Assembly (NCBI GenBank): GCA_934511165.1
Contig: CAKSWA010000046.1
Span: forward strand, 1 to 15,679
Reading direction: 5' to 3'
DNA length: 15,679 nt
Origin: an uncultured Oscillospiraceae bacterium
GTDB taxonomy: Bacteria; Bacillota; Clostridia; Oscillospirales; Oscillospiraceae
Both the position numbers and the translations under genes were made by a program. Position 1 is the first letter of the stretch, and the number at the start of each line of letters is the position of its first letter. Shown piece by piece: positions 1 through 15,574 of this stretch. The notes below the pieces were generated by a model. It made no database searches and was not told the origin of the DNA. It was given only the letters and a program-made list of their open reading frames with translations.

Positions 1-76
1 AGCACCCCCTGATGTAGTTCTATTTTCCTACATCAGGGGGTGTTTTGTCTATTGTCCGTTTTTACTGGTCCTGTTC
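1..76. repeat. Left copy of a perfect 76-bp inverted repeat (partner at 7217..7292). It has an internal hairpin (stem 3..17 / 28..42, loop 18..27) followed by TTTTGTCT and a second TTTTT run.
   Basis: Reverse complement of 1..76 equals 7217..7292 base for base. Position 77 versus 7216 may add one more matching base. The window starts at position 1, so the repeat could extend further left. Confidence 0.9.
3..50 (+). terminator. Intrinsic-terminator-like hairpin inside the left inverted repeat, oriented to stop rightward transcription entering the module.
   Basis: A perfect 15-bp stem (CACCCCCTGATGTAG / CTACATCAGGGGGTG) with a 10-nt loop is followed on the plus strand by TTTTGTCTATTGTCCGTTTTT. 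Confidence 0.4.
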
Positions 77-99
77 AAAAGGAAAGCGGGAATTTTTTG

Positions 100-1754: not shown

Positions 1755-3398
1755 GTGATTGCTTCGTTTTTTGCCGGATTAAAGAGAGAATTTTCCGGCT
1801 ACAACGCCGCGAGACTGATGAAGGACGTTCTTGCCGGTCTCACGGTATGCGCCGTGGCGCTGCCGCTCGCGCTCGCGTTCGGCGTTTCATCCGGCGCTTC
1901 CGCCGCGGCGGGACTCGTTACGGCGATTATCGCCGGTATCGTCATTGCGCTGCTCGGCGGCGCGTCGTTCCAGATTTCCGGCCCCACCGGCGCGATGAGC
2001 GCGGTGCTCGTCGGCATCGTGGCAACGCACGGCTTGCAGGGCGTATTTTTCGCGTGCTTCGCCGCCGGAATCTTACTGCTGCTCGCCGGTGTGCTCCGGC
2101 TCGGGCGGCTCATCAGCTTCATTCCGATGCCCGTCATCATGGGCTTCACATCCGGCATTGCGATCATCATTGCGCTCGGCCAGATCGACAATTTCTTCGG
2201 CACAACGTCCGAAGGGCTTACAAACATCGAAAAGCTGCTCTCCTATGGGCGGCTCGGCTTTCATGTGAACTGGCAGGCGGCGCTCATCGGGCTGCTCGTC
2301 GTGGCAATCATGATCCTCTGGCCGAAAAAGTGGGGCGCGCGCGTCCCCGGCTCGCTTGTCGGCATCATCGTGGCCGCCATCACTGCGGGTGTATTCCACA
2401 TGGATTCTCTCGCCACCGTCGGCGACATTCCCCGCACGCTGCTGCTCGCCGACCGGCTGGATCTCTCGTCGCTCAATTTTGCGATGGTCAAAGACTTGCT
2501 CTCACCCATCGTGACGATCGCGGCGCTCGGCATGATCGAGAGCCTCCTTTGCGGCGCTTCCGCCTCACGCATGAAGGGCGAGGCGTTCAACGCCGATCAG
2601 GAGCTGATCGCGCAGGGTGTCGGCAACATCCTTCTGCCGCTCTTCGGCGGCGTGCCCGCCACGGCGGCCATCGCCCGCACGAGTGTGGCGGTCAAGTCCG
2701 GCCAGCAGACGCGCCTGACGAGCGTTTTCCACTCGGTATTCCTGCTCGCGTCCATGTTCCTGCTCGGCGGCGTGATGGCGCGGCTGCCGCTCTCGGCGCT
2801 CGCGGGCGTGCTCATGGTCACGGCGTGGCGCATGAACGACTGGTCAGGCATCCGTTACGTCTTCCGCCACAAATTCAAATCCGGCATCAGCCAGTTTCTG
2901 CTCACGATGGTCGCGACGGTCGTATTTGATCTCACGGTCGCGATTCTGTTCGGCGTTGTCTACTCCGCCATTTTGTACATGGCCAAGTCCAGCCAGATCC
3001 GCGTGAGTTTTTCGGCCATCGATACGAACAAGCTCCGCGCCATCGACGGCAAGCCGCCGATCCTCGAATCCGCGGGCGTGGCGTATGTAACGGGCGCGCT
3101 GTTTTTCGGCGCGGTGGACGAATTCAATCACCGTATGGCGGAGATGCCCGCCTACGATCATGTGATCCTCTCGATGCGCGGCATGCCGAGCGTGGACGTG
3201 TCCGGCGCGCAGGCGATGCTTGAGCTGTGTGAGAATCTGCTTGCGCTGGGCAAGACCGTGGCCTGCTGCGGCATGAGCGAGAGCGTCCGGCGCTACTTTG
3301 ACCGCGCCGGGATCACTGAGGTTCTCGGCGAGAACGCGTATTTCTGGAGCGCCGACCAGGCGATCCTCGATCTGCTGGACGCGGAAATTGTGGAATAA
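1755..3398 (+). CDS. SulP-family inorganic anion (sulfate/bicarbonate) permease with a C-terminal STAS domain
   Basis: It has FAGLKREFSGYNAARLMKDVLAGLTV...ALPLALAFGVSSGAS and many transmembrane segments, with a C-terminal STAS domain (...VDVSGAQAMLEL...). I chose the GTG at 1755 because of GGAGGG 5 nt upstream. The ATG at 1701 and the track start at 1497 lack an RBS. Confidence 0.8.
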   Translation: MIASFFAGLKREFSGYNAARLMKDVLAGLTVCAVALPLALAFGVSSGASAAAGLVTAIIAGIVIALLGGASFQISGPTGAMSAVLVGIVATHGLQGVFFACFAAGILLLLAGVLRLGRLISFIPMPVIMGFTSGIAIIIALGQIDNFFGTTSEGLTNIEKLLSYGRLGFHVNWQAALIGLLVVAIMILWPKKWGARVPGSLVGIIVAAITAGVFHMDSLATVGDIPRTLLLADRLDLSSLNFAMVKDLLSPIVTIAALGMIESLLCGASASRMKGEAFNADQELIAQGVGNILLPLFGGVPATAAIARTSVAVKSGQQTRLTSVFHSVFLLASMFLLGGVMARLPLSALAGVLMVTAWRMNDWSGIRYVFRHKFKSGISQFLLTMVATVVFDLTVAILFGVVYSAILYMAKSSQIRVSFSAIDTNKLRAIDGKPPILESAGVAYVTGALFFGAVDEFNHRMAEMPAYDHVILSMRGMPSVDVSGAQAMLELCENLLALGKTVACCGMSESVRRYFDRAGITEVLGENAYFWSADQAILDLLDAEIVE

Positions 3399-6492: not shown

Positions 6493-7128
6493 TCATTTCT
6501 CAATTTTAAAAGGGTTTTCGTCCCAGCGGTCTGGCTTCAGAACGCTTCGCTTTGCAACGCTTTTCGGGTTTTCCTTGGATATTGCGTCAACGGCTGCGAT
6601 CAAAAAGGCGCCGCTGACAATTGCCCAAAACCAGCGGCGAAATGCAAAGAGGATCGCTGTCACGAATGCGATGCCGGCGGCAAGAAAAATATACGTCAGG
6701 AGCGGGACTTTCTGCTCGGCATAGTTGTCCCGGCGGGATTCATAAACATTTTCGGCGTAATTTCGCATCTCGTCTGTAACAGCGTTGAATCGCACGAGCT
6801 TTTCCCAGACTCCGGATGCATACCCTTTTCCGCAGGGGTCGAGATCCTGAAAATCGTGTGTCTCGGCTTTTAAAATAAGATGATAAAGACGCACCTCGAG
6901 CGGATGATCGGCTGCCAGCTGCCGGAAAAGGTCGGACGCTGTAGGCCAGTTTCCGGCTTCGAGATGGGCTATTGCCTTAGCATACTTCCGGCTGTCTTCC
7001 ATCTGCTTTTTTGCATCATCGAACTGGTCGATCGGCGTCCCACAGAGATCACAAACGAGCCTCATCTTTTTGTTCAGATGATAGGTGCTGCAGCCGCATC
7101 GCGGGCAGGCCTGCGTTTGATTCATCAT
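6493..7128 (-). CDS. Zinc-ribbon / TPR-like / C-terminal transmembrane protein (211 aa), function unknown
   Basis: It starts ATGATG with GGAGGGG 5 nt upstream. The N-terminus has CPRCGCSTYH...CDLCG. The middle is helical and TPR-like. The C-terminus has two hydrophobic segments (LTYIFLAAGIAFVTAILFAF / FWAIVSGAFLIAAV). The track start at 7248 is an unsupported extension. Confidence 0.6.
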   Translation of the reverse strand: MMNQTQACPRCGCSTYHLNKKMRLVCDLCGTPIDQFDDAKKQMEDSRKYAKAIAHLEAGNWPTASDLFRQLAADHPLEVRLYHLILKAETHDFQDLDPCGKGYASGVWEKLVRFNAVTDEMRNYAENVYESRRDNYAEQKVPLLTYIFLAAGIAFVTAILFAFRRWFWAIVSGAFLIAAVDAISKENPKSVAKRSVLKPDRWDENPFKIEK

Positions 7129-7146
7129 AAGATCCCCTCCTGTATT

Positions 7147-7161
7147 CTGTGTTAAACACAG
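7147..7161. promoter_or_regulatory. Perfect 15-bp palindrome CTGTGTT-A-AACACAG in the 5' region of the zinc-ribbon gene
   Basis: It is seen directly and lies 19..33 nt upstream of the start codon on the minus strand, abutting the RBS. It is a candidate operator. Confidence 0.3.
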
Positions 7162-7216
7162 TATCTCACATTTCAAAAAGGGAAATGGGAAATGAAAAGC
7201 AGCCCCCGCAGACGGT

Positions 7217-7292
7217 GAACAGGACCAGTAAAAACGGACAATAGACAAAACACCCCCTGATGTAGGAAAATAGAACTACATCAGGGGGTGCT
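7217..7292. repeat. Right copy of the perfect 76-bp inverted repeat (hairpin at 7251..7290)
   Basis: It is the exact reverse complement of 1..76. On the minus strand the hairpin is followed by the T-runs, so it would stop leftward transcription entering the module. Confidence 0.9.
7243..7290 (-). terminator. Terminator-like hairpin inside the right inverted repeat, minus-strand orientation
   Basis: It mirrors 3..50. Confidence 0.35.
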
Positions 7293-7295
7293 GTT

Positions 7296-7472
7296 ATGTC
7301 AAAAAGAGAATATACCCATGTACGGTTGCTGTATCCAGAGATTAAAGCAATGATAGAAGCAGGGAAAACGCAGCGGGAGATCGCGGAATACTATGGATTC
7401 AAGGACAAGTATGTAGTAAAGGGACTGTTTGCTTATACGGCATACCCTGATATTATTATGGAGAGTCTTTAA
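7296..7472 (+). CDS. 59-aa helix-turn-helix-like protein, possibly the N-terminal remnant of a transposase or recombinase gene
   Basis: The sequence is MSKREYTHVRLLYPEIKAMIEAGKTQREIAEYYGFKDKYVVKGLFAYTAYPDIIMESL. The ATG lies 4 nt after the right repeat. Its only SD-like sequence (GGGGG) sits within the hairpin stem. It is below the track's length cutoff. Confidence 0.3.
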   Translation: MSKREYTHVRLLYPEIKAMIEAGKTQREIAEYYGFKDKYVVKGLFAYTAYPDIIMESL

Positions 7473-7540
7473 CTCGCAGTGAACCACAAAACAATTACAA
7501 TCAAAGTCTAAATTAGAAGTTGGAGGTGTTTCTCATTGCC

Positions 7541-7564
7541 AATCATAACAAATCTGTTATGATT
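7541..7564. repeat. Perfect 10-4-10 inverted repeat AATCATAACA-AATC-TGTTATGATT in an AT-rich 416-bp non-coding leader
   Basis: It is seen directly. It is a candidate operator or element-end remnant. Confidence 0.5.
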
Positions 7565-7888
7565 AGAATTTAAAACAATATTATACAAAAATTTTATGCT
7601 GTGCTAGTATTATTTTGTTGCAACAGACAGACGGCGCGCCCTTGTGTCAGAGTTCAGAAAAATCCAATCTAAGTTTATACCCTATATTTTAATGCAGAAT
7701 CTGGGAGGTTATTCGTTTCTGCTTTCGTAACAGGCATAGTGCAGGATTATATTATTCCTTTCTATTGACATCGAACTGGAATAATTCGAAAACTTCCAAC
7801 AAGAGCTATTCACTTCTACTTTAAAGTGGCGGCTCTCGCCAAATTCTGCCCCTAAAGACCCTTAAAAAAAGAAAGTGAGGGAATCCTT

Positions 7889-9076
7889 ATGACTTGGTCT
7901 CCTATTTTGGCATTCGCAGTGATTGCGCTGGCATTTGGCATTGGCGATGTGATTGCTGCAAAGACACGCGGCGTTATCAGTTCCGTCTTGGTGGCTATTC
8001 TTTTGTTCCTTGTATTTGGAAGTACGTTCAAACTTCTTCCTGCCGATTTGATGAATCAGTCTGGCCTGATGAGCCTTATTCCCACGTTCGGTATGGCTCT
8101 TATTCTCGTGAATGTGGGTTCTATGCTTGATCTGAATGTTCTGAGACGTGAATGGAAAACCGTCCTTGTTTCGCTTGCAGGTGTGGCTGGATTAGTAGTG
8201 ATCTACCTCACTGTTGGCACATTGATTTTTGGCAAGGAGTACGCTCTGGGAGCGATGGGCCCTGCCTCTGGCGGTATGGCAGCAACCATGATTCTAACTG
8301 CTGCGGCGAACGAGGCCGGACGTGCAGATCTGGCAGGTTTCGTCGCTTCGGTGATGGCCCTTCAGGTTCTGGTTGGACTCCCTATTGCATCCTTCTGCCT
8401 GCGAAAAGAGGCTAACCGATTCTTAAATGCTGGCGAAAATCAGCGGGCCAAAATGCTGGAAGAAGGCAGAAAACTGAGCATTCGTATTTTGCCTGAAACC
8501 CCCGAAGTACTGGACACCCCGAATATCCATCTGGCTCGAGTGGCACTTGTTGGGTTTATTGCCTATATGGTGACTTCCCTGACTGGTATTTCCACAGGTA
8601 TTACATATTTGGTGGGTGGTGTGCTGTTTGCTGCCTTGGGTGTCATTGAACCGGGTGCTGTTCGAAAAGCTGGTGCGGAGGGCCTGCTGATGCTGGCTAC
8701 TTACTGCAGTGTCACCAGCAGCTTCGTGAGCATGACTCTTTCACAGTTCGGCGGAATGCTTCCGTCAGTTGTTGGCCTGTTGCTGATTGGAGCAATCGGT
8801 GTTATTGGATTCTCTATATTAGTTGGAAAACTTCTAAAATGGAGTCCGTGGCTGTCTGTTGCTGTTGGTATCGGTTGTATGTTGGGCTATCCTGTAAACT
8901 ATGCTGCAGCCATGGAAGTTTCTTCTGGCGTATCCAAGGGAAGAGGACTCAATAAAGAAGATGAGCAGAAATTGGTGGATCAGTTACTGCCCAAGATGAT
9001 CGTCTCTTGTGTGGTATCGATAAGTATTGCTTCTGTGATACTGGCAGGCGCCATCGCCCCTATTTTGTTTGGTTAA
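7889..9076 (+). CDS. Polytopic membrane protein, putative transporter (395 aa); family not confidently assigned
   Basis: GTGAGGG lies 7 nt upstream of the ATG. It has about 10 to 12 predicted hydrophobic helices. It ends 1 nt before the amidohydrolase start and is probably a substrate transporter for it. Confidence 0.65.
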   Translation: MTWSPILAFAVIALAFGIGDVIAAKTRGVISSVLVAILLFLVFGSTFKLLPADLMNQSGLMSLIPTFGMALILVNVGSMLDLNVLRREWKTVLVSLAGVAGLVVIYLTVGTLIFGKEYALGAMGPASGGMAATMILTAAANEAGRADLAGFVASVMALQVLVGLPIASFCLRKEANRFLNAGENQRAKMLEEGRKLSIRILPETPEVLDTPNIHLARVALVGFIAYMVTSLTGISTGITYLVGGVLFAALGVIEPGAVRKAGAEGLLMLATYCSVTSSFVSMTLSQFGGMLPSVVGLLLIGAIGVIGFSILVGKLLKWSPWLSVAVGIGCMLGYPVNYAAAMEVSSGVSKGRGLNKEDEQKLVDQLLPKMIVSCVVSISIASVILAGAIAPILFG

Positions 9077-10288
9077 ATGACAAATATGAATACGCTTTTG
9101 AACGATGCGCGGATTCTGCAAGAAGAGATTGTTGCAAATCGTCGCGCGATTCACAAATTTGCAGAAGTAGGGTTTGATTTACCTCATACCTATGCCTACG
9201 TCTTTGATAAGTTGATCGAGTATGGCTATAACCCCCAAAAGGTTGGTAAGATGGGCATTACCTGTTTGGCGGGGAAGCCTGGGGCCACTATCTTGCTTCG
9301 GGCAGATATGGACGCTCTTCCCATGATGGAGGAGAGCGGAGAAAGCTTTGCTGCCACCAATGGCAATTGCCATTCTTGCGGACATGACTGCCATACCGCA
9401 ATGCTCTTAGGAGCAGCCAAGCTCCTGAAAGAACGGGAAAACGAACTGTGCGGAACAGTAAAGTTCATGTTTCAGCCTGCCGAAGAGATCATGGGCGGAG
9501 CCCTAGATATGTTGGAAAATGGCATCTTAGAAAACCCTAAAGTGGATATGGCTTTGGGCCTTCATATCATTACCGGAAACGAAATCAGCAAGTCAGGGCG
9601 TATCTGCTGTATTCACCATTGTGTAGCTACTTCAGGCGATGCAATAAAGATTACTGTGCAGGGAAAGGATGCCCACGGCTCACTGCCGGAAAAAGGTGTA
9701 GATGCAATTCATATTGCTGCTCATATCATCCTGGCCTTAGAGGAACTGACAGCTCGTGAGCTTCCCATGAAGCAGGACAGTATTGTTTTGGTGGGACGTA
9801 TTGTGGGTGGTACAACTTGCAACAGCGTAGCCGGTGAGACAACACTGGAGGTATCTGTTCGTACTAACGGCCCTGAAGAGCGCAATTTTCTTCTTAAACG
9901 AGTTGAGGAAATCGCCACCGGTGTAGCAGCTACCTTCCGGGGAAAAGCAAAGGTAGAACATTTATATGGTGCTCCACCACTTGTAAACCCCGAACCGGAG
10001 TTGTTGGAAATTCAGTCATACCTAAGGGAAATGCTTCCACAGGAATTTGTTGTAGACTGTCCCAAGATGGGTGGAAGTGAGGACTTTACGATGGTTTCCG
10101 AACGGGTGACATCAGTATTTCTTCAACTTGGAGTGGGAAGCATTGATGAAGGCTACCCATGCGGTCCCCATCAGCCTGCTATGCGGGTGGATGAATCTGC
10201 CCTCCCAGTGGGTGTGGCCGCTTATACTCAATGTGCTTTGCGCTGGCTGGAAGAACACCAAAATGAAGAACCTAGATTTGATAGATAA
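9077..10288 (+). CDS. M20D-family amidohydrolase (N-acyl-amino-acid amidohydrolase / hippurate hydrolase-like)
   Basis: It carries HSCGHDCHTAMLLGAAK, the metal-binding signature of the ama/hipO-type M20D peptidases. The N-terminus reads LQEEIVANRRAIHKFAEVGFD. The start is coupled to the upstream gene (TAAATG) with no SD. Confidence 0.85.
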   Translation: MTNMNTLLNDARILQEEIVANRRAIHKFAEVGFDLPHTYAYVFDKLIEYGYNPQKVGKMGITCLAGKPGATILLRADMDALPMMEESGESFAATNGNCHSCGHDCHTAMLLGAAKLLKERENELCGTVKFMFQPAEEIMGGALDMLENGILENPKVDMALGLHIITGNEISKSGRICCIHHCVATSGDAIKITVQGKDAHGSLPEKGVDAIHIAAHIILALEELTARELPMKQDSIVLVGRIVGGTTCNSVAGETTLEVSVRTNGPEERNFLLKRVEEIATGVAATFRGKAKVEHLYGAPPLVNPEPELLEIQSYLREMLPQEFVVDCPKMGGSEDFTMVSERVTSVFLQLGVGSIDEGYPCGPHQPAMRVDESALPVGVAAYTQCALRWLEEHQNEEPRFDR

Positions 10289-10326
10289 AACTGGGGGAAT
10301 TGCTTCCTTTTTGATGAGTAAAAATC

Positions 10327-10401
10327 ATGTTAGGAATTGTGTTTAATGCAGCGAGTGTGATATGCGGCAGCTTTTTTGGCGTGCTGGTTGGGAAAAAATA
10401 A
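10327..10401 (+). pseudogene. Possible 24-codon N-terminal remnant of a DUF554-type membrane protein gene
   Basis: MLGIVFNAASVICGSFFGVLVGKK resembles DUF554 N-termini (YdfK-like). There is no RBS and the frame terminates immediately. Confidence 0.2.
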
Positions 10402-10561
10402 ATCATTCCTTTGCAGAAGTAATGAATCAGGTCTTGCCGTATTGCAAAACTGTGTGACTTTCCAGTAGCAGATATGCTTCCAGCCCTTGTAATAGTCTTT
10501 CCCTTGAGTGCACTTTGGGGCCGGATTCCGCTCTAATCTAACTTATTCTCAAAAGCCATCT

Positions 10562-10590
10562 TTCAAGTATAGAAATATTTATGGTATACT
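10562..10590 (+). promoter_or_regulatory. Putative promoter (extended -10 TGgTATACT) for the LysR gene
   Basis: TG-n-TATACT at 10582..10590 with a weak -35 TTCAAG. It lies about 25 nt upstream of the AAAGGAG RBS. Confidence 0.3.
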
Positions 10591-10631
10591 GGCAATGTCC
10601 TGAAAGTGGGTAACGAAAAGGAGTTGGATAT

Positions 10632-11558
10632 ATGACGATTGAACGGCTCCGCTGTTTTGTGGCGGCAGCAAAGCACTTGAATTTCACTCGGGCAGCAGCA
10701 GAACTGCACATGGCCCAAACTGCCATGAGTCGGCAGATTGCTACGTTAGAGGATGAATTAAACTGTCGCCTATTTGATAGGACCAATCGGTCTGTCCAAC
10801 TCACCCCCGCGGGCAAGTGCTTTTTTGATGGAATTGGCCCTTTGCTGAAATTATATGATAAGACCATAGAAGAAACTCAAGTAGTAAGTAAGCGCTTGGC
10901 AGGAGAACTGCGGGTAGGAATTGGACAGTATGAGCAAAGTTTTGTCTCTGAATTGGTGCGGGAATTTCATCAGAGTTATCCAATGGTAGAGGTAATGGTA
11001 ACCAAGTATGGCTATCAGGACTTGCTCGAACACTTGGTCACAGGAGAGATAGATGTGGCGTTTGCCCTCCCAGTCAGCACTGAATATCTGGCAGATCAAG
11101 AGGTAGAGATACGGGAACTCTTCTATTCGGATGTTTGCATTGCGGTGTGTGAGAATCATCCGATGGCTGGTGCAAAGACATTTCCGAAGGAACGCTTTGA
11201 GCAAGAGCGTCTTTTAACTATCAGTGAAGAGGATGGTCCATGTTCTTTTCGTATCTTGATTGAAAAATTTGAAAAAAAACACGTGCGCTTTAAGGATATT
11301 CGTCGAGTAAACAGCCTGGATGCAGCACTTTTGATGGTCAAGGCGGGGCTGGGCATTGCTATAATCCCTGAATTCTTAAAAGTAAGGGTGCCAGAGGGAG
11401 TTACCACAGTTCCTACCAGAGGTTGGCAAGCGGCAGGGAATCAGTTTGTGGCTATTTCACGCAAAGGTCATAAAGAATCGCAGGTTGAAGCTTTTCTTCA
11501 GGGAATCGCAACATCCCATACTCTTTGGGAACAAATGGAACTACTTAATGTCTACTGA
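10632..11558 (+). CDS. LysR-family transcriptional regulator
   Basis: It has an N-terminal HTH (IERLRCFVAAAKHLNFTRAAAELHMAQTAMSRQIATLEDEL) and a C-terminal substrate-binding domain. AAAGGAG lies 8 nt upstream. Confidence 0.85.
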   Translation: MTIERLRCFVAAAKHLNFTRAAAELHMAQTAMSRQIATLEDELNCRLFDRTNRSVQLTPAGKCFFDGIGPLLKLYDKTIEETQVVSKRLAGELRVGIGQYEQSFVSELVREFHQSYPMVEVMVTKYGYQDLLEHLVTGEIDVAFALPVSTEYLADQEVEIRELFYSDVCIAVCENHPMAGAKTFPKERFEQERLLTISEEDGPCSFRILIEKFEKKHVRFKDIRRVNSLDAALLMVKAGLGIAIIPEFLKVRVPEGVTTVPTRGWQAAGNQFVAISRKGHKESQVEAFLQGIATSHTLWEQMELLNVY

Positions 11559-11566
11559 ACAATAGC

Positions 11567-12602
11567 CTATTTTTCCACGGGCATGAAAATAGCCAGCAGA
11601 TATGTAAGCAAACGCAAAATGGCGCACTGAATCTTGCGGAGATTCAGCACCAGAACGGACATAGCAATCACATGGGCAGCCGTTTCCCGCAGTTTAGCGG
11701 TGACAAGTCCCATACCGCATTTTCGCTTTGCCAGACTGAACTTGCGCTCCACTTCCACGCTCGCACTCATCCCGGTAATCCTGAGCCTTGTCTCTGGTTT
11801 CGCCCTTCTTAGGACGTCCCAGTGCCGGACCGGATAGCCGGATTCCGTGTGCCTTGCAATAGTTGAGATTCTCACGGTTTCGGTAGATCTTGCCTGCCAG
11901 AATGCGGCTTGGATAATGTCCTTCCCGCTCCCGGAACCGTTCCGCCATCTCCTGCAGATTCCCAGCTTCATTGTAGGCATCAAAAGAGCAGCATTCCAGC
12001 CGTGTCCATCCATCTACAACACTGATGTCCAGCTTGGCGCCAAACTCCACCGGCTTGCCTGTTTTTCCCCGTACGATGGGACGGACGAAAGGCTGGCTCA
12101 CACTGACGATTCGGTCATTCACATGGTGGGTGTGGTTATCATACATGTACTTCTGCTGCTCATAGATGGTGCGGACCGTATCCAGACGTTCCATCTGCCG
12201 TGTGGTCAAGGTTTTTCCAAGGGACAGTTTGCCATCTATGGCATCGAGGTCACGCCGGAGATAAGTCAGCTGCTTTCCGATTGCTTTGCGGGTCATCTTG
12301 GCGGTATGCTTGCGACATCTTGTGTATTTCAGGTAATCTTTCCGGGCCCGCTTGCGGTAAGTGCGTGGCTTCTTCCCATCCGCGGGATCATGGAGAACAT
12401 CCAGAAGCGCCTCGGCGTTCTCTCTGGCCTCATTGAGCAGAGAAACGTCCTGGGGATAACGGATATTGGACGGTGCACAGGTGGCGTCCACAATCATGGT
12501 GCCGCTGTTTCCGCCTGTTCCTGGATGATTGCCAGAGTCATTATCGTCATCCCTGGATTTGGCCTCTTTTTCCTGACGCTCCTTTGCGTCCCGCACGATC
12601 AT
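11567..12602 (-). mobile_element. Decayed IS5/IS1182-superfamily (DDE_Tnp_1-type) transposase gene: N-terminally truncated and frameshifted near 11756..11770
   Basis: Frame 1 (11694..12602) has TMIVDATCAPSNIRYPQD...YRNRENLNYCKAHGIRLSGPALGRPKK. The expected C-terminal block VEVERKFSLAKRKCGMGLV...LNLRKI continues in a different frame (11567..12013). The catalytic Asp lies only about 35 aa into the ORF, so about 100 N-terminal residues are missing. No terminal inverted repeats are evident, and the last stop is only 8 bp from the LysR stop. Confidence 0.7.
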
Positions 12603-12626
12603 CTCATTTTTTTGACAAAGGACAGC

Positions 12627-13412
12627 ATGGTTTTCAATTCCGCGGAGGAAATCAATGGCCTGTACGTTGTCTTAAACGGAACACTGGAATCCTTTTTCTA
12701 TGAAAACGGAAACTATTACACAAACAAGATCCTCAAGCAGGGCGCAATCGTCGGGACGAGCCGGTTTTTGACCGGCGGCCGTCACACGGGATTGAAATGC
12801 CGGACCGATGCGATCGTTGCCTATGTTTCCCATGATGTCCTGATCCGCTGGGATAAGCAGGCGCTGCTGCAGCTTCTTTCCACCCAGTCCCAGAAAAACC
12901 AGCACCTGATCAACCAGATCACAACGCTGTTCCTGTGCTCCTGTACGAAGCGGCTGCTCCTTTTCCTGTACGAAATGGCAAAGGACAATCTCACCATGGG
13001 AAGAATGGATATCCCGGTTCAGATCTCCATATCCAACAAGGACATTGCCAGCATCATCAACACCTCCCGGGAGATCGAGCTTCTCGCGGTGGTTGACGGC
13101 GAGGTCGTTGGCACCGCTGGGATAGACGCCGTCGGAACAAAATACAAAGTGGCGCACCGCGCCGAATTCGGCATCAGCGTGCTGAAGGAATTCTGGGGGC
13201 TTGGCATCGGCCGCGCGATGATGGACGCGTGCATCCAATGCGCGAGAGACGCCGGGTATGTCCAGCTGGAGCTGAGCGTGGTGGCGGACAACGCTCAGGC
13301 GATCGCCATGTACCAAAGGGCCGGGTTCGTGGAATGCGGCCGGAACCCCAGGGGCTTCCGCTCACGGGCGGCGGGGTATCAGGAAGTTGCTTCCATACTT
13401 CTGACGCTGTGA
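12627..13412 (+). CDS. Mosaic ORF: a Crp/Fnr-type fragment (cNMP-binding domain plus partial HTH) fused in frame to the C-terminal two-thirds of a GNAT acetyltransferase
   Basis: The 12603..13080 part is Crp-like (AEEINGLYVVLNGTLE...GAIVGTSRFL...RLLLFLYEMAK...ISNKDIASIINTSREIE) but lacks both its N-terminus and its recognition helix. From about 13081 it continues as GNAT motifs (AVVDGEVVGTAG...EFWGLGIGRAMMDA...AIAMYQRAGF). Base composition changes visibly at the same point. Confidence 0.5.
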   Translation: MVFNSAEEINGLYVVLNGTLESFFYENGNYYTNKILKQGAIVGTSRFLTGGRHTGLKCRTDAIVAYVSHDVLIRWDKQALLQLLSTQSQKNQHLINQITTLFLCSCTKRLLLFLYEMAKDNLTMGRMDIPVQISISNKDIASIINTSREIELLAVVDGEVVGTAGIDAVGTKYKVAHRAEFGISVLKEFWGLGIGRAMMDACIQCARDAGYVQLELSVVADNAQAIAMYQRAGFVECGRNPRGFRSRAAGYQEVASILLTL

Positions 13413-13460
13413 CGCACCCCGCAAAGAAAAACATACGGCAGCAGAGGAAAAGAAACGTCT

Positions 13461-13889
13461 ATGGAAATTCGCCCATTGGATAAGGAAACCTATGCGGGCA
13501 GGAAATTTACCGCCCGGTATACGACAAGCGGGTATTACGATATCGCCGTCTCGGAAGGCGGCTTTGCGATGCAGTATACGCCGTTTGAAGCGCCTCTCGA
13601 GCGCGTGAATTTGGAGCCGTATTTGGACGGCGTGGAGCTGGTCGTTGCCGGCGGAGAGTCGGACAGGGACGCAAGACCTCTGGACTACGAATGGGTGCTG
13701 GACATCCGCGAGCAGTGCATCCGAAAGCAGGTCAATTTCGAGTTCCGCCAATGCGGAACGCACTCCATCAAAGACGGCAGACAGTATAAGCTCCAGACCC
13801 GAGACCTGTGCCGGCAGGCGCGTCTGGCCGGTATCAACTACCAATGTGAGCCGAGCCGGGATAATAAACGGGAGTCATCTTATGCATGA
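13461..13889 (+). CDS. 142-aa ORF with a DUF5131 (phage Gp37/Gp68-like) C-terminal block and a possibly GNAT-like N-terminus
   Basis: LVVAGGESDRDARPLDYEWVLDIREQCIRKQVNFEFRQCG matches the recalled DUF5131 C-terminus (WVIVGGESGPGARP...WVRSIRDQC...FFFKQWG). The Cys-motif N-terminal half is absent. The first about 47 aa (MEIRPLDKETYAGRKFTARYTTSGYYD...) instead resemble the start of a GNAT subfamily. Confidence 0.45.
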   Translation: MEIRPLDKETYAGRKFTARYTTSGYYDIAVSEGGFAMQYTPFEAPLERVNLEPYLDGVELVVAGGESDRDARPLDYEWVLDIREQCIRKQVNFEFRQCGTHSIKDGRQYKLQTRDLCRQARLAGINYQCEPSRDNKRESSYA

Positions 13890-14409
13890 TACATTGACGG
13901 TAAACAACGCGGGATATGCCGTGATCAAGCTCCTTGGCAAGGGAAAGGGCGGCTATTCCTATCTCGTGACGGACGGCGAGCGGGAATACGTTCTCAAGCA
14001 GATCCACCACGAGCCGTGCGAATACTACACCTTCGGCGACAAGCTGCAATCGGAGCTGCGCGACTATGAAACGCTGCGCGCTCTCGACATCCCCATGCCG
14101 CGGCTGCTGGTGGTGGACGAGGCGCAGGAGCGCCTTTTGAAGGAATATATTCCTGGGGCGACGGTTGCGGAGCGGCGTGCGGCGAGAGAGATAGACGAGC
14201 GCTGGACAGAGCAGGTGCGCGTCATGTGCGCCATTCTGTATCCGGCAGGGCTGAACATCGACTATTACCCCACCAACTTCGTCCCCTGCGGCGAAACGCT
14301 CTATTACATTGACTATGAATGCAACGCCTATATGGAAGAATGGGATTTTGAGCATTGGGGCGCGCAGTACTGGACACTCCAGCCGCCGGAGCCATCTGCG
14401 CCAATTTGA
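13882..14409 (+). CDS. Minimal protein-kinase-like fold protein (175 aa)
   Basis: It has a Gly-rich loop GKGKGGYSY, a VLKQ lysine, a hinge-like LLKEYIPG, a catalytic-loop-like NIDYYPTNFV and a DFG-like YIDYE. The start overlaps the upstream stop (ATGCATGA). GGGAG lies 8 nt upstream. Confidence 0.55.
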   Translation: MHDTLTVNNAGYAVIKLLGKGKGGYSYLVTDGEREYVLKQIHHEPCEYYTFGDKLQSELRDYETLRALDIPMPRLLVVDEAQERLLKEYIPGATVAERRAAREIDERWTEQVRVMCAILYPAGLNIDYYPTNFVPCGETLYYIDYECNAYMEEWDFEHWGAQYWTLQPPEPSAPI

Positions 14410-14414
14410 CAGAA

Positions 14415-14449
14415 TTGCCCGCCGGGAAACCGACGGGCAAAATTTTTTT
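14415..14449 (+). terminator. Rho-independent terminator
   Basis: The hairpin TTGCCCGCCGGGAAACCGACGGGCAA is followed by AATTTTTTTC, 6 nt after the stop. Confidence 0.6.
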
Positions 14450-14459
14450 CAAAACCCTA

Positions 14460-14488
14460 TTGACAATCCGCAAATGTGCTGCTATATT
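14460..14488 (+). promoter_or_regulatory. Strong sigma-A promoter of the perR-rubrerythrin operon
   Basis: TTGACA (14460..14465), a 17-nt spacer, then TG-c-TATATT (14480..14488). This is a consensus -35 with an extended -10. Confidence 0.65.
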
Positions 14489-14496
14489 AAAAATAA

Positions 14497-14511
14497 CAAT
14501 AATCATTATTG
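14497..14511. promoter_or_regulatory. Fur-family (PerR-type) operator: perfect 7-1-7 palindrome CAATAAT-C-ATTATTG overlapping the predicted transcription start
   Basis: It is seen directly. It matches the ATAAT-N-ATTAT core of Bacillus-type Fur/PerR boxes and starts 9 nt after the -10, the classic autorepression position. Confidence 0.6.
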
Positions 14512-14542
14512 ATTATGAAGTTCCCCAGCAAAGGAGCCAATC

Positions 14543-14962
14543 ATGGAAAGCACCCGGCGGCAAAGTAAAAAACGTGACGCGATCCGCGAGATACTGCTCG
14601 CGTCGTACGATCACCCGAGCGCGGAGGAGATCTACCGGCGGCTCAAGCCGGACATCCCGGATCTCTCGCTCGGCACGGTGTACCGCAATCTCGCGCTCTT
14701 CCGTGAGGAGGGCAAGGCGATGAGCGTTGCCACGGTCGCGGGGCAGGAGCGGTTCGACGGCCGGACGCACCCCCACGCGCACTTCATCTGCGAGAAGTGC
14801 GGCCGCGTGGACGATGTGGACGCGGTGCTGCCCGAAACGCTCGTCACCGGCGAAATGCCCGGCGAGGTTCGCTCCTGGGCGCTGACATTTTACGGCATCT
14901 GCCGCTGCTGCGCAGCGGACGATCATAAAGAAAACAACAAAGAAAACAAAGAGAAAAATTGA
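14543..14962 (+). CDS. perR: Fur-family transcriptional regulator, PerR-like (peroxide-responsive repressor), with an unusual K/N/E-rich C-terminal tail
   Basis: [38 protein letters not shown] and YGICRCC align with B. subtilis PerR blocks. AAGGAG lies 6 nt upstream. It precedes a rubrerythrin gene as in clostridial perR loci. Confidence 0.75.
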
Positions 14963-14981
14963 TTTAATGGAGGATCTTATT

Positions 14982-15551
14982 ATGAAAAAGTGGGTTTGCC
15001 CGGTTTGCGGTTATGTTCATGAAGGCGAAGAGCCCCCGGCGGAGTGCCCGGTTTGCCATGTCCCCGGCAGCAAGTTCAAGCTGCAGGCGGAGGAAAAGAC
15101 CTGGGCGGCGGAGCATGTCGTCGGCGTCGGCAAGGTGTTCGGCGCGGACGTTCCCGCCGAGGTGCAGGAGGAGATCATCTCCGGTCTGCGCGCCAACTTT
15201 GAGGGCGAGTGCAGCGAGGTCGGCATGTATCTGGCCATGTCCCGCGTTGCGCACCGCGAGGGCTATCCGGAGATCGGCCTCTACTGGGAAAAGGCCGCGC
15301 TGGAAGAGGCCGAGCACGCCGCGAAGTTCGCCGAGCTCCTCGGCGAGGTTGTGACGACCTCCACGAAGAAGAATCTGGAGATGCGCGTTGACGCCGAGAA
15401 CGGCGCCACCGCCGGCAAGTTCGAGCTCGCGAAGCTCGCGAAGAAGTACAATCTCGACGCCATCCACGACACTGTGCACGAAATGGCCCGTGACGAGGCG
15501 CGTCACGGCAAGGCATTCGAGGGTCTGCTGAACCGCTACTTCGGCAAGTAA
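14982..15551 (+). CDS. Reverse rubrerythrin (N-terminal rubredoxin-like Cys4 domain plus C-terminal ferritin-like diiron domain)
   Basis: It has CPVCGY...CPVCHV, then the diiron ligand motifs EEAEHAAKF and [14 protein letters not shown] lies 8 nt upstream of the ATG at 14982. The track start at 14967 sits on top of the SD. It is 19 nt after perR, so it is likely co-transcribed. Confidence 0.8.
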
Positions 15552-15574
15552 TTCAGCCTAAAATAAGCCTTTTG

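What the first reader, a model, noticed from the sequence alone, without database searches (positions are those of the whole stretch)
12603..13412. An in-frame chimeric ORF fuses a Crp/Fnr fragment to a GNAT C-terminal fragment exactly at a compositional breakpoint
The reading frame stays open across a junction at about 13077..13083. A Crp-like protein (cNMP-binding barrel, dimerisation helix, first two HTH helices up to NTSREIE) lacks its recognition helix. It switches directly into beta-strand 4 (AVVDGEVVGTAG) of a GNAT that lacks its first about 50 residues. GC content shifts visibly at the same spot. The Crp part also lacks its own N-terminus, having been replaced by the IS remnant. This looks like a recombination or deletion scar that happens to preserve frame. 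Alternatively, if expressed, it is a neo-protein coupling a ligand-binding domain to a partial acetyltransferase. Natural cNMP-binding-plus-GNAT proteins exist (the mycobacterial KATmt type), but not with an interposed half-HTH.
Basis: partly seen in the sequence, partly recalled or inferred. Interest (0 to 1): 0.55.

Follow-up and report, generated by a model that had tools for sequence, protein, structure and literature searches.

The report
Deletion scar fusing two gene fragments
The odd Crp–acetyltransferase hybrid reading frame is the scar of a 1,152-base deletion between two copies of an 8-base sequence, which removed the end of one regulator gene, a whole second regulator gene and the start of an acetyltransferase gene; it is an ordinary decaying pseudogene, not a new kind of protein.

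Summary
The chimera is real. Window 12608..13073 matches codons 34-188 of a 225-aa Crp/Fnr-family gene. Window 13066..13412 matches codons 68-181 of a 181-aa GNAT gene. The two matches overlap in 8 bp, CCCGGGAG (13066..13073). A sister contig from another sample (L094) carries intact Crp–TetR–GNAT. It has CCCGGGAG once in Crp and once in GNAT, 1,152 bp (384 codons) apart. Deleting that interval in silico reproduces the window with 5 mismatches in 805 nt. So this is a microhomology-mediated deletion that happens to stay in frame. It removes the Crp recognition helix, the whole TetR gene and GNAT β1-α1-α2. Among 5.8 billion protein clusters only one has this architecture. It is seen in three assemblies. 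Everything else is an intact 181-aa GNAT or a Crp allele. In sister strains the Crp gene is broken in at least four other ways. All substitutions in it are nonsynonymous, and two of the window's private changes hit GNAT positions invariant in the family. The GC step (50% vs 63%) is real but unexceptional. The undeleted locus already has it at the Crp/TetR border. The neo-protein reading is very unlikely. Low interest.

The parts
12608..13065 (+). Fragment of a Crp/Fnr-family regulator gene, codons 34-186 of 225. It keeps most of the cNMP-binding barrel, the dimerisation helix and the first HTH helices. It lacks 33 N-terminal codons and the 37 C-terminal codons (recognition helix and wing).
   Evidence: 99.8% identical to L094 1493..1958. 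Pfam cNMP_binding and a partial HTH_Crp_2 match. Intact 225-aa alleles are P0170 and P0171. Distant full-length relatives are 211-234 aa.
13066..13073 (+). 8-bp microhomology CCCGGGAG, the deletion junction. The undeleted allele has one copy in Crp and one in GNAT. Here a single copy remains.
   Evidence: Matches to the Crp parents end at 13073. Matches to the GNAT parents begin at 13066. In L094 the octamer sits at 1951 and 3103, 1,152 bp apart.
13074..13412 (+). 3' fragment of a 181-aa GNAT acetyltransferase gene, codons 70-181 plus the stop. It spans β2 to β7 and includes the P-loop region WGLGIG. It lacks β1-α1-α2 (motif C).
   Evidence: 99.4% identical to L003/L004 and 98.5% to L094. Pfam Acetyltransf_1 profile positions 31-116 of 116. 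Secondary structure from the model. Alignment to intact GNATs.
12627..13412 (+). 261-aa chimeric ORF counted from internal Met40 of the Crp gene. A weak AGGA lies 4 nt upstream. This is how the gene was called in sister contig L001.
   Evidence: No sigma-70-like promoter or terminator was found on the + strand nearby.
11847..12602 (+). Spurious 5' extension of the ORF. It is an open frame antisense to the transposase remnant. The public gene call (P0163, 521 aa) includes it.
   Evidence: The region encodes an IS5 transposase on the opposite strand.
11567..12602 (-). IS5-family transposase remnant. It is 5'-truncated (the match starts at profile position 133 of 419) and split into two frames. 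It replaces the Crp 5' end and upstream flank.
   Evidence: NCBIfam transpos_IS5_1 E = 1.9e-64 (profile 133-378) and 9.2e-07 (profile 370-417). Pfam DDE_Tnp_1_2. Sister contigs L001, L090 and L094 carry the Crp 5' region here instead.
13461..13889 (+). Neighbouring second deletion scar. A 142-aa in-frame fusion of the first 48 codons of a 174-aa GNAT to the C-terminal part of a DUF5131 gene. The junction is the 8-bp microhomology TCGAGCGC at 13597..13604.
   Evidence: Pfam DUF5131 profile positions 157-226 of 243. L010 and L005 match up to 13604. L010 and L006 match from 13597. About 1,140 bp are missing relative to L010.

Best explanation
The chimeric ORF is a fusion pseudogene left by one microhomology-mediated deletion.

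**Ancestral locus and the event**
- The ancestral locus is still intact in sister strains of an uncultured gut Oscillospiraceae-like bacterium. It reads Crp/Fnr-family regulator (225 aa), 183-bp spacer, TetR-family regulator (210 aa), GNAT acetyltransferase (181 aa).
- The octamer CCCGGGAG occurs in the same reading frame in Crp (codons S186-R-E188) and in GNAT (P67-R-E69).
- Illegitimate, RecA-independent recombination between these two short direct repeats removed the 1,152 bp between them. The route was template switching, replication slippage or microhomology-directed end joining. This step is inferred.
- The removed stretch holds Crp codons 189-225, the spacer, all of TetR and GNAT codons 1-69.
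- 1,152 is a multiple of three, so the frame stays open. That is a one-in-three accident.

**Later event**
- In the window's lineage, an IS-associated rearrangement replaced the Crp 5' end (codons 1-33 and the upstream flank) with a truncated IS5 element.

**Consequence**
- The product, if made at all, would lack the Crp DNA-recognition helix and N-terminal strands, and the GNAT β1-α1-α2 arm. It is most likely non-functional and evolving neutrally.
- The real genetic consequence of the event is loss of the TetR regulator and of the first GNAT.

**Shown versus inferred**
- Shown: both parental genes, their adjacency, the repeat at both endpoints, the exact deletion size, and the rarity of the fusion.
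- Inferred: the molecular route of the deletion, and the lack of function.
For: **The deletion itself**
- The breakpoints are exact and reproducible.
  - Every Crp-bearing contig matches the window up to 13073 (L002, L009, L094-L097).
  - Every GNAT-bearing contig matches from 13066 (L003-L005, L010, L011, L091-L094).
- The junction alignment shows the shared CCCGGGAG.
- L094, L095 and L096, from three different samples, carry the intact Crp and TetR genes on one contig. L094 and L095 also carry the complete 181-aa GNAT; L096 ends 56 codons into it.
- In L094 the octamer lies at 1951 and 3103. Cutting out the 1,152 bp reproduces window 12608..13412 with 5 mismatches in 805 nt.
- L009+L003 and L009+L005 give the same size independently.

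**Rarity**
- 1 cluster of 2 sequences has the fused architecture, against more than 100 intact 181-aa GNAT clusters.
- Only P0001, P0002 and P0121 are close to the Crp half.

**Not an artefact**
- The junction is present in the window, in L001 (SPAdes, with 5 nt differences and a different left flank) and in L100 (MEGAHIT, another sample).

**Decay of the locus**
- The Crp gene is independently broken in sister strains by:
  - a MITE-like insertion (L090/L002);
  - a 5' deletion (L009);
  - a nonsense codon at codon 25 (L001);
  - a fusion to DUF5131 (L097).
- All 5 substitutions in the Crp part are nonsynonymous.
- The window's three private changes are all nonsynonymous.
- Two of them, R to Q in DNARA and M to I in SMLL, hit positions invariant in the 22 GNAT homologues aligned.

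**Context**
- Two more microhomology deletions occur at the same locus: TCGAGCGC at 13597..13604, and about 11 bp in L097.
- RecA-independent deletion between short direct repeats a few kb apart is an established process (PMC7145654).
Against: - No single contig shows the exact parent. L094 is 99.8% identical over the Crp part but 98.5% over the GNAT side. L003 is closer for GNAT (99.4%), but its TetR is only 85% identical to L009's. The neighbourhood is therefore mosaic among strains.
- An ATG with a weak AGGA (12627) exists and the frame is intact, so translation cannot be excluded.
- The GNAT fragment keeps motifs D, A and B.
- AlphaFold gives moderate confidence for both half-domains (mean pLDDT 70).
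- Too few substitutions are available for a formal dN/dS test.
- All three fusions seen at this locus are in frame. If that is not ascertainment, it hints at some selection on frame.
Confidence: 0.9

Rival explanations
1. Functional neo-protein. The fusion is expressed from Met40. It works as a ligand-sensing domain coupled to a partial acetyltransferase, or as a dominant-negative Crp that dimerises but cannot bind DNA.
For: - The frame is intact, with an ATG and AGGA at 12618-12629.
- The dimerisation helix and most of the β-barrel are retained, as are GNAT motifs D, A and B including the P-loop region.
- The allele persists in at least three assemblies.
- Natural cNMP-GNAT fusions exist (Rv0998/MtPatA; PMC4964394).
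Against: - GNAT β1-α1-α2 is missing. This is motif C, which contributes to stability and to the acceptor site (PMC4964394).
- About 39 N-terminal residues of Crp and the whole recognition helix and wing are missing.
- Only one protein cluster has this architecture.
- Private substitutions hit invariant GNAT residues, with no synonymous changes.
- The Crp gene is inactivated in several other independent ways in sister strains, so it is dispensable.
- No promoter-like site lies upstream; only the antisense strand of an IS remnant does.
- pTM is 0.43, with no confident inter-domain packing.
Confidence: 0.04
2. Inter-lineage recombination. The two halves come from different organisms or replicons and were joined after horizontal transfer. 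The GC step would mark the boundary of foreign DNA.
For: - GC is 49.9% vs 62.8% across the junction.
- The Crp half has no relatives in the GTDB species representatives, whereas the GNAT half has many.
- The TetR gene differs by 12-15% between otherwise near-identical strains.
Against: - Crp, TetR and GNAT are contiguous on single contigs.
- The undeleted locus has the same GC step at the Crp/TetR border (Crp 0.49, TetR 0.62, GNAT 0.61).
- GC3 is high in both halves (0.71 and 0.78).
- A simple 1,152-bp deletion explains every base.
Confidence: 0.03
3. Assembly artefact. A metagenome assembler joined two unrelated contigs through a short shared sequence.
For: The source is a metagenome-assembled contig. 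The related contigs have low coverage (3-6x).
Against: - The shared sequence is only 8 bp, far below assembler k-mer sizes.
- The same junction appears in independent assemblies made with different assemblers and samples (SPAdes NODE_50470 in ERZ15609701; MEGAHIT k141_557878 in ERZ27287511). These differ in point substitutions and, for L001, in the left flank.
Confidence: 0.01

Closest known systems
RecA-independent (illegitimate) deletion between short direct repeats, by template switching, replication slippage or microhomology-mediated end joining
   Same: The undeleted allele has two identical short direct repeats (8 bp) about 1.15 kb apart. One copy is retained at the junction and the intervening DNA is lost precisely. 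Further examples occur in the same locus (8 bp and about 11 bp).
   Different: Nothing unusual. The mechanism itself cannot be observed from sequence. The octamer contains a CCCGGG palindrome, so a break-and-rejoin route cannot be told apart from slippage.
Crp/Fnr-family transcription regulators (cNMP_binding + HTH_Crp_2)
   Same: The N-terminal half descends from a 225-aa member of this family. It keeps the β-barrel, the long dimerisation helix and the start of the HTH (…NTSRE).
   Different: It lacks the 33 N-terminal codons and the 37 C-terminal residues that carry the recognition helix and wing. The parent gene is a divergent, narrowly distributed member, with only 43 relatives at E ≤ 1e-3 among 1.84 billion representatives.
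GNAT (GCN5-related N-acetyltransferase) superfamily; a 181-aa TetR-linked GNAT widespread in Clostridia
   Same: The C-terminal half is 99% identical in DNA to the 3' two-thirds of this gene (β2-β7, motifs D, A, B).
   Different: β1-α1-α2 (motif C, 69 residues) is missing. It carries substitutions at family-invariant positions.
cAMP-regulated protein acetyltransferases (Rv0998/MtPatA, KATmt type)
   Same: The superficial domain order is the same: a cyclic-nucleotide-binding-type domain followed by GNAT sequence.
   Different: In MtPatA a complete cNMP domain is joined to a complete GNAT catalytic domain, and the fusion is a conserved family. Here both parts are truncated, half an HTH is interposed, and the fusion is a strain-level deletion allele.

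Membership tests
Microhomology-mediated deletion scar | The undeleted allele exists and carries the same short sequence as a direct repeat at both endpoints | tested here: met
   In L094, CCCGGGAG sits at 1951 (Crp) and 3103 (GNAT).
Microhomology-mediated deletion scar | One repeat copy is retained, the flanks are colinear with the parent, and nothing else is changed | tested here: met
   The in-silico deletion of L094 matches window 12608..13412 with 5 mismatches in 805 nt.
Microhomology-mediated deletion scar | Molecular route (slippage or template switching versus end joining), and RecA independence | not testable with these tools
   Sequence alone cannot tell these apart. The background is from PMC7145654.
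Crp/Fnr-family regulator | N-terminal cNMP-binding β-barrel | tested here: inconclusive
   PF00027 scores 29.8 bits against a cut-off of 27.5, at aa 4-81. The barrel is incomplete, because 33 codons (39 residues if counted from Met40) are missing relative to P0170.
Crp/Fnr-family regulator | C-terminal winged HTH with the DNA-recognition helix | tested here: not met
   HTH_Crp_2 matches only profile positions 2-37 of 70, at 17.3 bits against a cut-off of 27. The 37 residues HVTKMLRSLEK…FWSI of P0002 and P0170 are absent.
GNAT acetyltransferase | Complete core fold β1-α1-α2-β2-β3-β4-α3-β5-α4-β6, with motifs C-D-A-B | tested here: not met
   The first 69 residues of the 181-aa parent (motif C region) are absent. 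The model starts at β2. The topology is from PMC4964394.
GNAT acetyltransferase | Motif A P-loop (Q/R-x-x-G-x-G/A) for acyl-CoA binding | tested here: met
   W-G-L-G-I-G precedes helix α3, as in the parent. The first position is W rather than Q or R in the whole subfamily.
cNMP-regulated GNAT (Rv0998/MtPatA, KATmt type) | Complete cNMP-binding domain fused to a complete GNAT catalytic domain | tested here: not met
   Both domains are truncated, and a half-HTH lies between them.
cNMP-regulated GNAT (Rv0998/MtPatA, KATmt type) | The fusion architecture is conserved as a family across genomes | tested here: not met
   Only one cluster of 2 sequences at 98% identity or above has it, among 1,992 hits.
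IS5-family insertion sequence (left neighbour) | Full-length DDE transposase with terminal inverted repeats | tested here: not met
   The transposase match covers profile positions 133-417 of 419 only and is split over two frames. It is a remnant.

The most novel reading that the evidence does not exclude
The frame preservation may not be accidental. All three independent microhomology deletions seen at this locus are in frame: Crp–GNAT here, GNAT2–DUF5131 at 13597..13604, and Crp–DUF5131 in L097. This could reflect selection for deletions that keep translation running through the operon, for example to preserve translational coupling into the downstream kinase-like gene. It could also reflect the Crp-barrel fusions being expressed as ligand-binding or dominant-negative proteins.
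Probability: 0.04. Interest if true: 0.45.

Novelty: new member of a known kind. Interest (0 to 1): 0.15.

Why it matters
**Annotation hygiene**
- The public gene call for this contig is a 521-aa "protein" (P0163). It is really three things joined: the antisense strand of an IS5 remnant, a Crp fragment and a GNAT fragment.
- Domain-architecture surveys could mistake it for a natural cNMP–GNAT fusion.

**Illustrative value**
- The locus is a clean natural example of how short direct repeats and insertion elements erode a small regulatory and detoxification-type gene cluster within one gut bacterial population.
- Five alleles have been recovered: the intact one, three microhomology-deletion alleles and one with a MITE-like insertion.

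It does not reveal a new mechanism or protein family.

Tried and rejected
- **Genome-contig scan with the reconstructed Crp protein.** 87 pattern hits, none confirmed. The Crp gene is absent from the GTDB species representatives.
- **Metagenome-contig scan for the Crp-side 27-mer.** No hit. The GNAT-side 28-mer gave three loci (L091-L093). None matches the window upstream of 13066. Two (L091, L093) are GNAT alleles about 90% identical to the window; the third (L092) matches only 42 bp at its contig end.
- **Exact look-up of the 261-aa ORF of the window.** Not on record, because the public call is the 521-aa ORF.
- **Plasmid-collection search with the IS5 remnant.** Only distant hits at 80% identity or less, so the IS-side breakpoint at 12608 could not be resolved.
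- **Rfam scan of the window.** Nothing.
- **Promoter and terminator scan of 12300..13700.** Nothing on the + strand near the ORF.
- **GC-based change-point analysis.** It does not place the strongest change at the junction.
- **Restriction cut-and-rejoin origin, suggested by the CCCGGG palindrome.** Considered and set aside as the main explanation. It cannot be told apart from microhomology-mediated events. The second junction's DUF5131 side lacks the corresponding hexamer palindrome.
- **Full history of the IS3/IS5 rearrangement left of 12608.** Not resolved. The data show only that window 7218..12607 replaces the Crp upstream flank seen in L001, L009 and L094.

Full report
**1. What is in the window**

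The + strand frame is open from 11847 to 13412 (521 codons). The first 252 codons lie antisense to an IS5-family transposase remnant at 11567..12602 on the minus strand. NCBIfam transpos_IS5_1 matches profile positions 133-378 and 370-417 of 419, in two frames. That part is a shadow ORF.

From 12603 onward, Pfam finds three things:
- cNMP_binding at aa 4-81.
- Only the first half of HTH_Crp_2 (profile 2-37 of 70, aa 117-157).
- Immediately after, Acetyltransf_1 from profile position 31 to its end (aa 155-242).

**2. Where the two halves come from**

A search of 5.8 billion protein clusters with the 261-aa ORF (12627..13409) returned 1,992 hits.
- Only one covers the whole query. This is P0001, 98% identical, in a cluster of 2 sequences.
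- The 120 best hits that are listed comprise P0001, P0002 (165 aa, the Crp C-terminal part with a complete HTH, 97% identical) and 118 GNAT-only proteins, 109 of them exactly 181 aa. P0003 and P0004 are 93% identical to the query over the GNAT half.

The protein sequences show the join:
- Crp parent: …ISNKDIASIINTSRE|HVTKMLRSLEK…
- GNAT parent: …FLASKAESPRE|IELLAVVDGEVVGTAG…
- Window: …NTSRE|IELLAVVDG…

At DNA level:
- Crp-type contig L002 matches window 12706..13073 at 99.2%.
- GNAT-type contigs L003 and L004 match from 13066 on (L003 to 13707, L004 to 13589) at 99.4% and 99.2%.
- The two matches overlap by exactly 8 bp, CCCGGGAG (13066..13073).

Every other related contig breaks at the same bases: L005, L009, L010, L011, L091-L094 and L097.

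**3. The undeleted allele**

The cluster of P0002 contains 225-aa members, P0170 and P0171. Three contigs from three samples encode P0170 (L094, L095, L096). All three carry intact Crp (225 aa) and TetR (210 aa). L094 and L095 also carry the complete 181-aa GNAT; L096 ends 56 codons into it. Downstream, L094 and L095 carry the same neighbours as the window.

In L094 the octamer CCCGGGAG occurs at 1951, in Crp, and at 3103, in GNAT. These are 1,152 bp apart. The interval adds up as follows:

| Deleted segment | Length (nt) |
|---|---|
| Crp codons 189-225 plus stop | 114 |
| Spacer | 183 |
| TetR gene | 633 |
| Spacer | 15 |
| GNAT codons 1-69 | 207 |
| Total | 1,152 |

Removing this interval in silico reproduces window 12608..13412 with 5 mismatches in 805 nt. 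Bridging L009 (Crp–TetR) with L003 or with L005 (TetR–GNAT) gives the same size.

This is the classic signature of deletion between short direct repeats. That process is RecA-independent and known for repeats within a few kb of each other (PMC7145654). Which route was used is an inference: slippage, template switching or end joining.

The Crp and GNAT genes share 15 octamer matches in direct orientation, and 5 of these are in frame. Being in frame is therefore the expected one-in-three accident.

**4. Not an artefact, but rare**

The junction occurs in three assemblies:
- the window, a complete 15,679-nt public contig;
- L100, a MEGAHIT contig from ERZ27287511 that encodes an identical 521-aa ORF;
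- L001, a SPAdes contig from ERZ15609701 with 5 nt differences.

L001 has the native Crp 5' region instead of the IS5 remnant, but with an AAA-to-TGA nonsense change at codon 25. So the deletion predates the loss of the Crp 5' end in the window's lineage.

No other protein cluster has this architecture. The Crp-side 27-mer is absent from the JGI metagenome collection.

**5. What is missing from each half**

Crp side:
- Intact alleles begin MNLDTAAPLYVSKDCLNHHDYLLNKILDTAEIH-FLTKDSM… (P0135, P0170).
- Window homology starts at codon 34 (12608/12609).
- Distant full-length relatives of 211-234 aa align their residues 31-39 to the first residues of the fragment. This confirms the N-terminal truncation.
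- The C-terminal 37 residues, carrying the recognition helix and wing, are gone.

GNAT side:
- 69 of 181 residues are missing.
- The AlphaFold model has mean pLDDT 70 and pTM 0.43.
- After the junction it shows three strands, the P-loop helix, a strand, a helix and two strands. That is β2-β3-β4-α3-β5-α4-β6-β7 in the canonical topology (PMC4964394).
- So β1-α1-α2 (motif C), said there to contribute to stability and to the acceptor site, is absent.

**6. Evidence on function**

- All five substitutions among the Crp sequences are nonsynonymous.
- The window's private changes are S-to-F at 12931, R-to-Q at 13297 and M-to-I at 13397. All are nonsynonymous.
- The last two hit residues invariant in the 22 aligned GNAT homologues (DNARA; SM(L/R)L).
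- Sister strains break the Crp gene in other ways:
  - a roughly 275-bp MITE-like element with 20-bp terminal inverted repeats, inserted at about 12705 (L090 + L002);
  - a 5' deletion (L009);
  - a nonsense codon (L001);
  - an in-frame fusion to DUF5131 through about 11 bp of microhomology (L097-L099).
- No promoter-like site precedes the ORF.

Together this points to a dispensable gene in decay, not a recruited neo-protein. The numbers are too small for a formal test, and expression was not testable here.

**7. The GC step**

| Region | GC |
|---|---|
| Window Crp part | 49.9% |
| Window GNAT part | 62.8% |
| L094 Crp | 0.49 |
| L094 TetR | 0.62 |
| L094 GNAT | 0.61 |

- The difference between the two window halves gives Fisher p = 3e-4.
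- GC3 is 0.71 vs 0.78, so codon usage is similar in both halves.
- 17.6% of positions in the window show as large a step.
- The likelihood-best change point within the region is 12731.
- In the undeleted L094 the step sits at the Crp/TetR border. The deletion merely moved it to the junction.
- It is no evidence for different lineages.

**8. Context**

The right part of the window (13066..15552) is 90-92% identical to a contig of an uncultured Oscillospiraceae MAG (L010). Its order is TetR–GNAT–GNAT2–GNAT3–DUF5131–kinase-like–Fur–rubrerythrin.

Relative to L010, the window carries a second in-frame deletion scar. ORF 13461..13889 fuses 48 codons of GNAT2 to the DUF5131 C-terminal part at TCGAGCGC (13597..13604). 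That scar is also present in strains with the intact first GNAT (L003, L094).

To the left, window 7218..12607 holds a membrane protein, an M20 peptidase, a LysR regulator and the IS5 remnant. It replaces the Crp upstream flank seen in L001, L009 and L094. It begins with the end and truncated orfA of an IS3-family element (7216..7472). An inverted 77-bp copy of that end sits at 1..77. I did not fully resolve that rearrangement.

**9. Comparison with known systems and verdict**

The object works like, and is, a fusion pseudogene produced by deletion between short direct repeats.
- It descends from a Crp/Fnr regulator and a GNAT, but fails a defining feature of each: the recognition helix, and the complete core fold.
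- It is not a member of the Rv0998/MtPatA type of cNMP-regulated acetyltransferases, which join complete domains and are conserved (PMC4964394).

The neo-protein alternative gets about 4%.

Interest is low. The value lies in flagging a misleading 521-aa gene call, and in a tidy natural example of microhomology- and IS-driven locus erosion.

Noticed in passing
window 13461..13889 (junction 13597..13604): A second in-frame chimeric ORF of 142 aa. The first 48 codons of a 174-aa GNAT are fused to the C-terminal part of a DUF5131 gene at the 8-bp microhomology TCGAGCGC. About 1,140 bp are missing relative to L010. The scar is also present in strains whose first GNAT is intact (L003, L094-L096).
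   Followed up: yes
L097:297-1307 (also L098, L099); junction L097 about 945-957: A third in-frame fusion in sister strains (P0175, 336 aa). A nearly full-length Crp (to …DVDKKL) is joined to the DUF5131 C-terminal part through about 11 bp of microhomology (GGACAAAAAGC). TetR and the three GNAT genes are deleted.
   Followed up: partly
L090:322-586 + L002:1-65 (insertion site corresponds to window about 12705): A roughly 275-bp non-coding element with perfect 20-bp terminal inverted repeats (GCGTCGATTAACAAGGGCAC) is inserted in the Crp gene of other strains. AA appears to be duplicated at the site. It looks like a MITE. A similar end sequence occurs in L010 at 7216 and in L091.
   Followed up: partly
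window 1..77 and 7216..7292; 7296..7472: A perfect 77-bp inverted repeat. It is the terminal end of an IS3-family element, whose intact orfA (95 aa) and orfB (rve) are seen in L094 3..1072. Window 7296..7472 is a truncated orfA of 58 aa. The 7.1-kb segment 78..7215 therefore lies between two inverted IS ends, one of them cut by the contig start.
   Followed up: partly
window 7218..12607 versus L009:1-547: L009 joins window 6825..7217 (100% identity) directly to the Crp upstream flank, inside a hairpin (CCCCCGCAG…CTGCGGGGG). So the block carrying the 395-aa membrane protein, the M20 peptidase, LysR and the IS5 remnant is absent there. It is an IS-associated insertion or rearrangement whose history I did not resolve.
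   Followed up: partly
window 11847..13412: The public gene call for this contig is the full 521-aa ORF (P0163, held by NCBI and ENA). It merges the antisense strand of a transposase remnant with two gene fragments, so it is a misleading annotation.
   Followed up: yes
window 7889..9076: A 395-aa multi-pass membrane protein with no Pfam match at E ≤ 0.01, lying directly upstream of the M20 peptidase gene (9077..10288).
   Followed up: no
L011 (CAVIVK010000151.1): A contig binned as 'Bifidobacteriaceae bacterium' carries the Oscillospiraceae-type GNAT locus (91% aa identity to P0003, 91% DNA identity to window 13066..13604). This is probably binning contamination.
   Followed up: no
L009 vs L003 vs L005 (TetR gene): The TetR gene differs by 12-15% between strains whose flanking Crp and GNAT genes are about 99% identical to the window. 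This indicates mosaic recombination within the locus.
   Followed up: no
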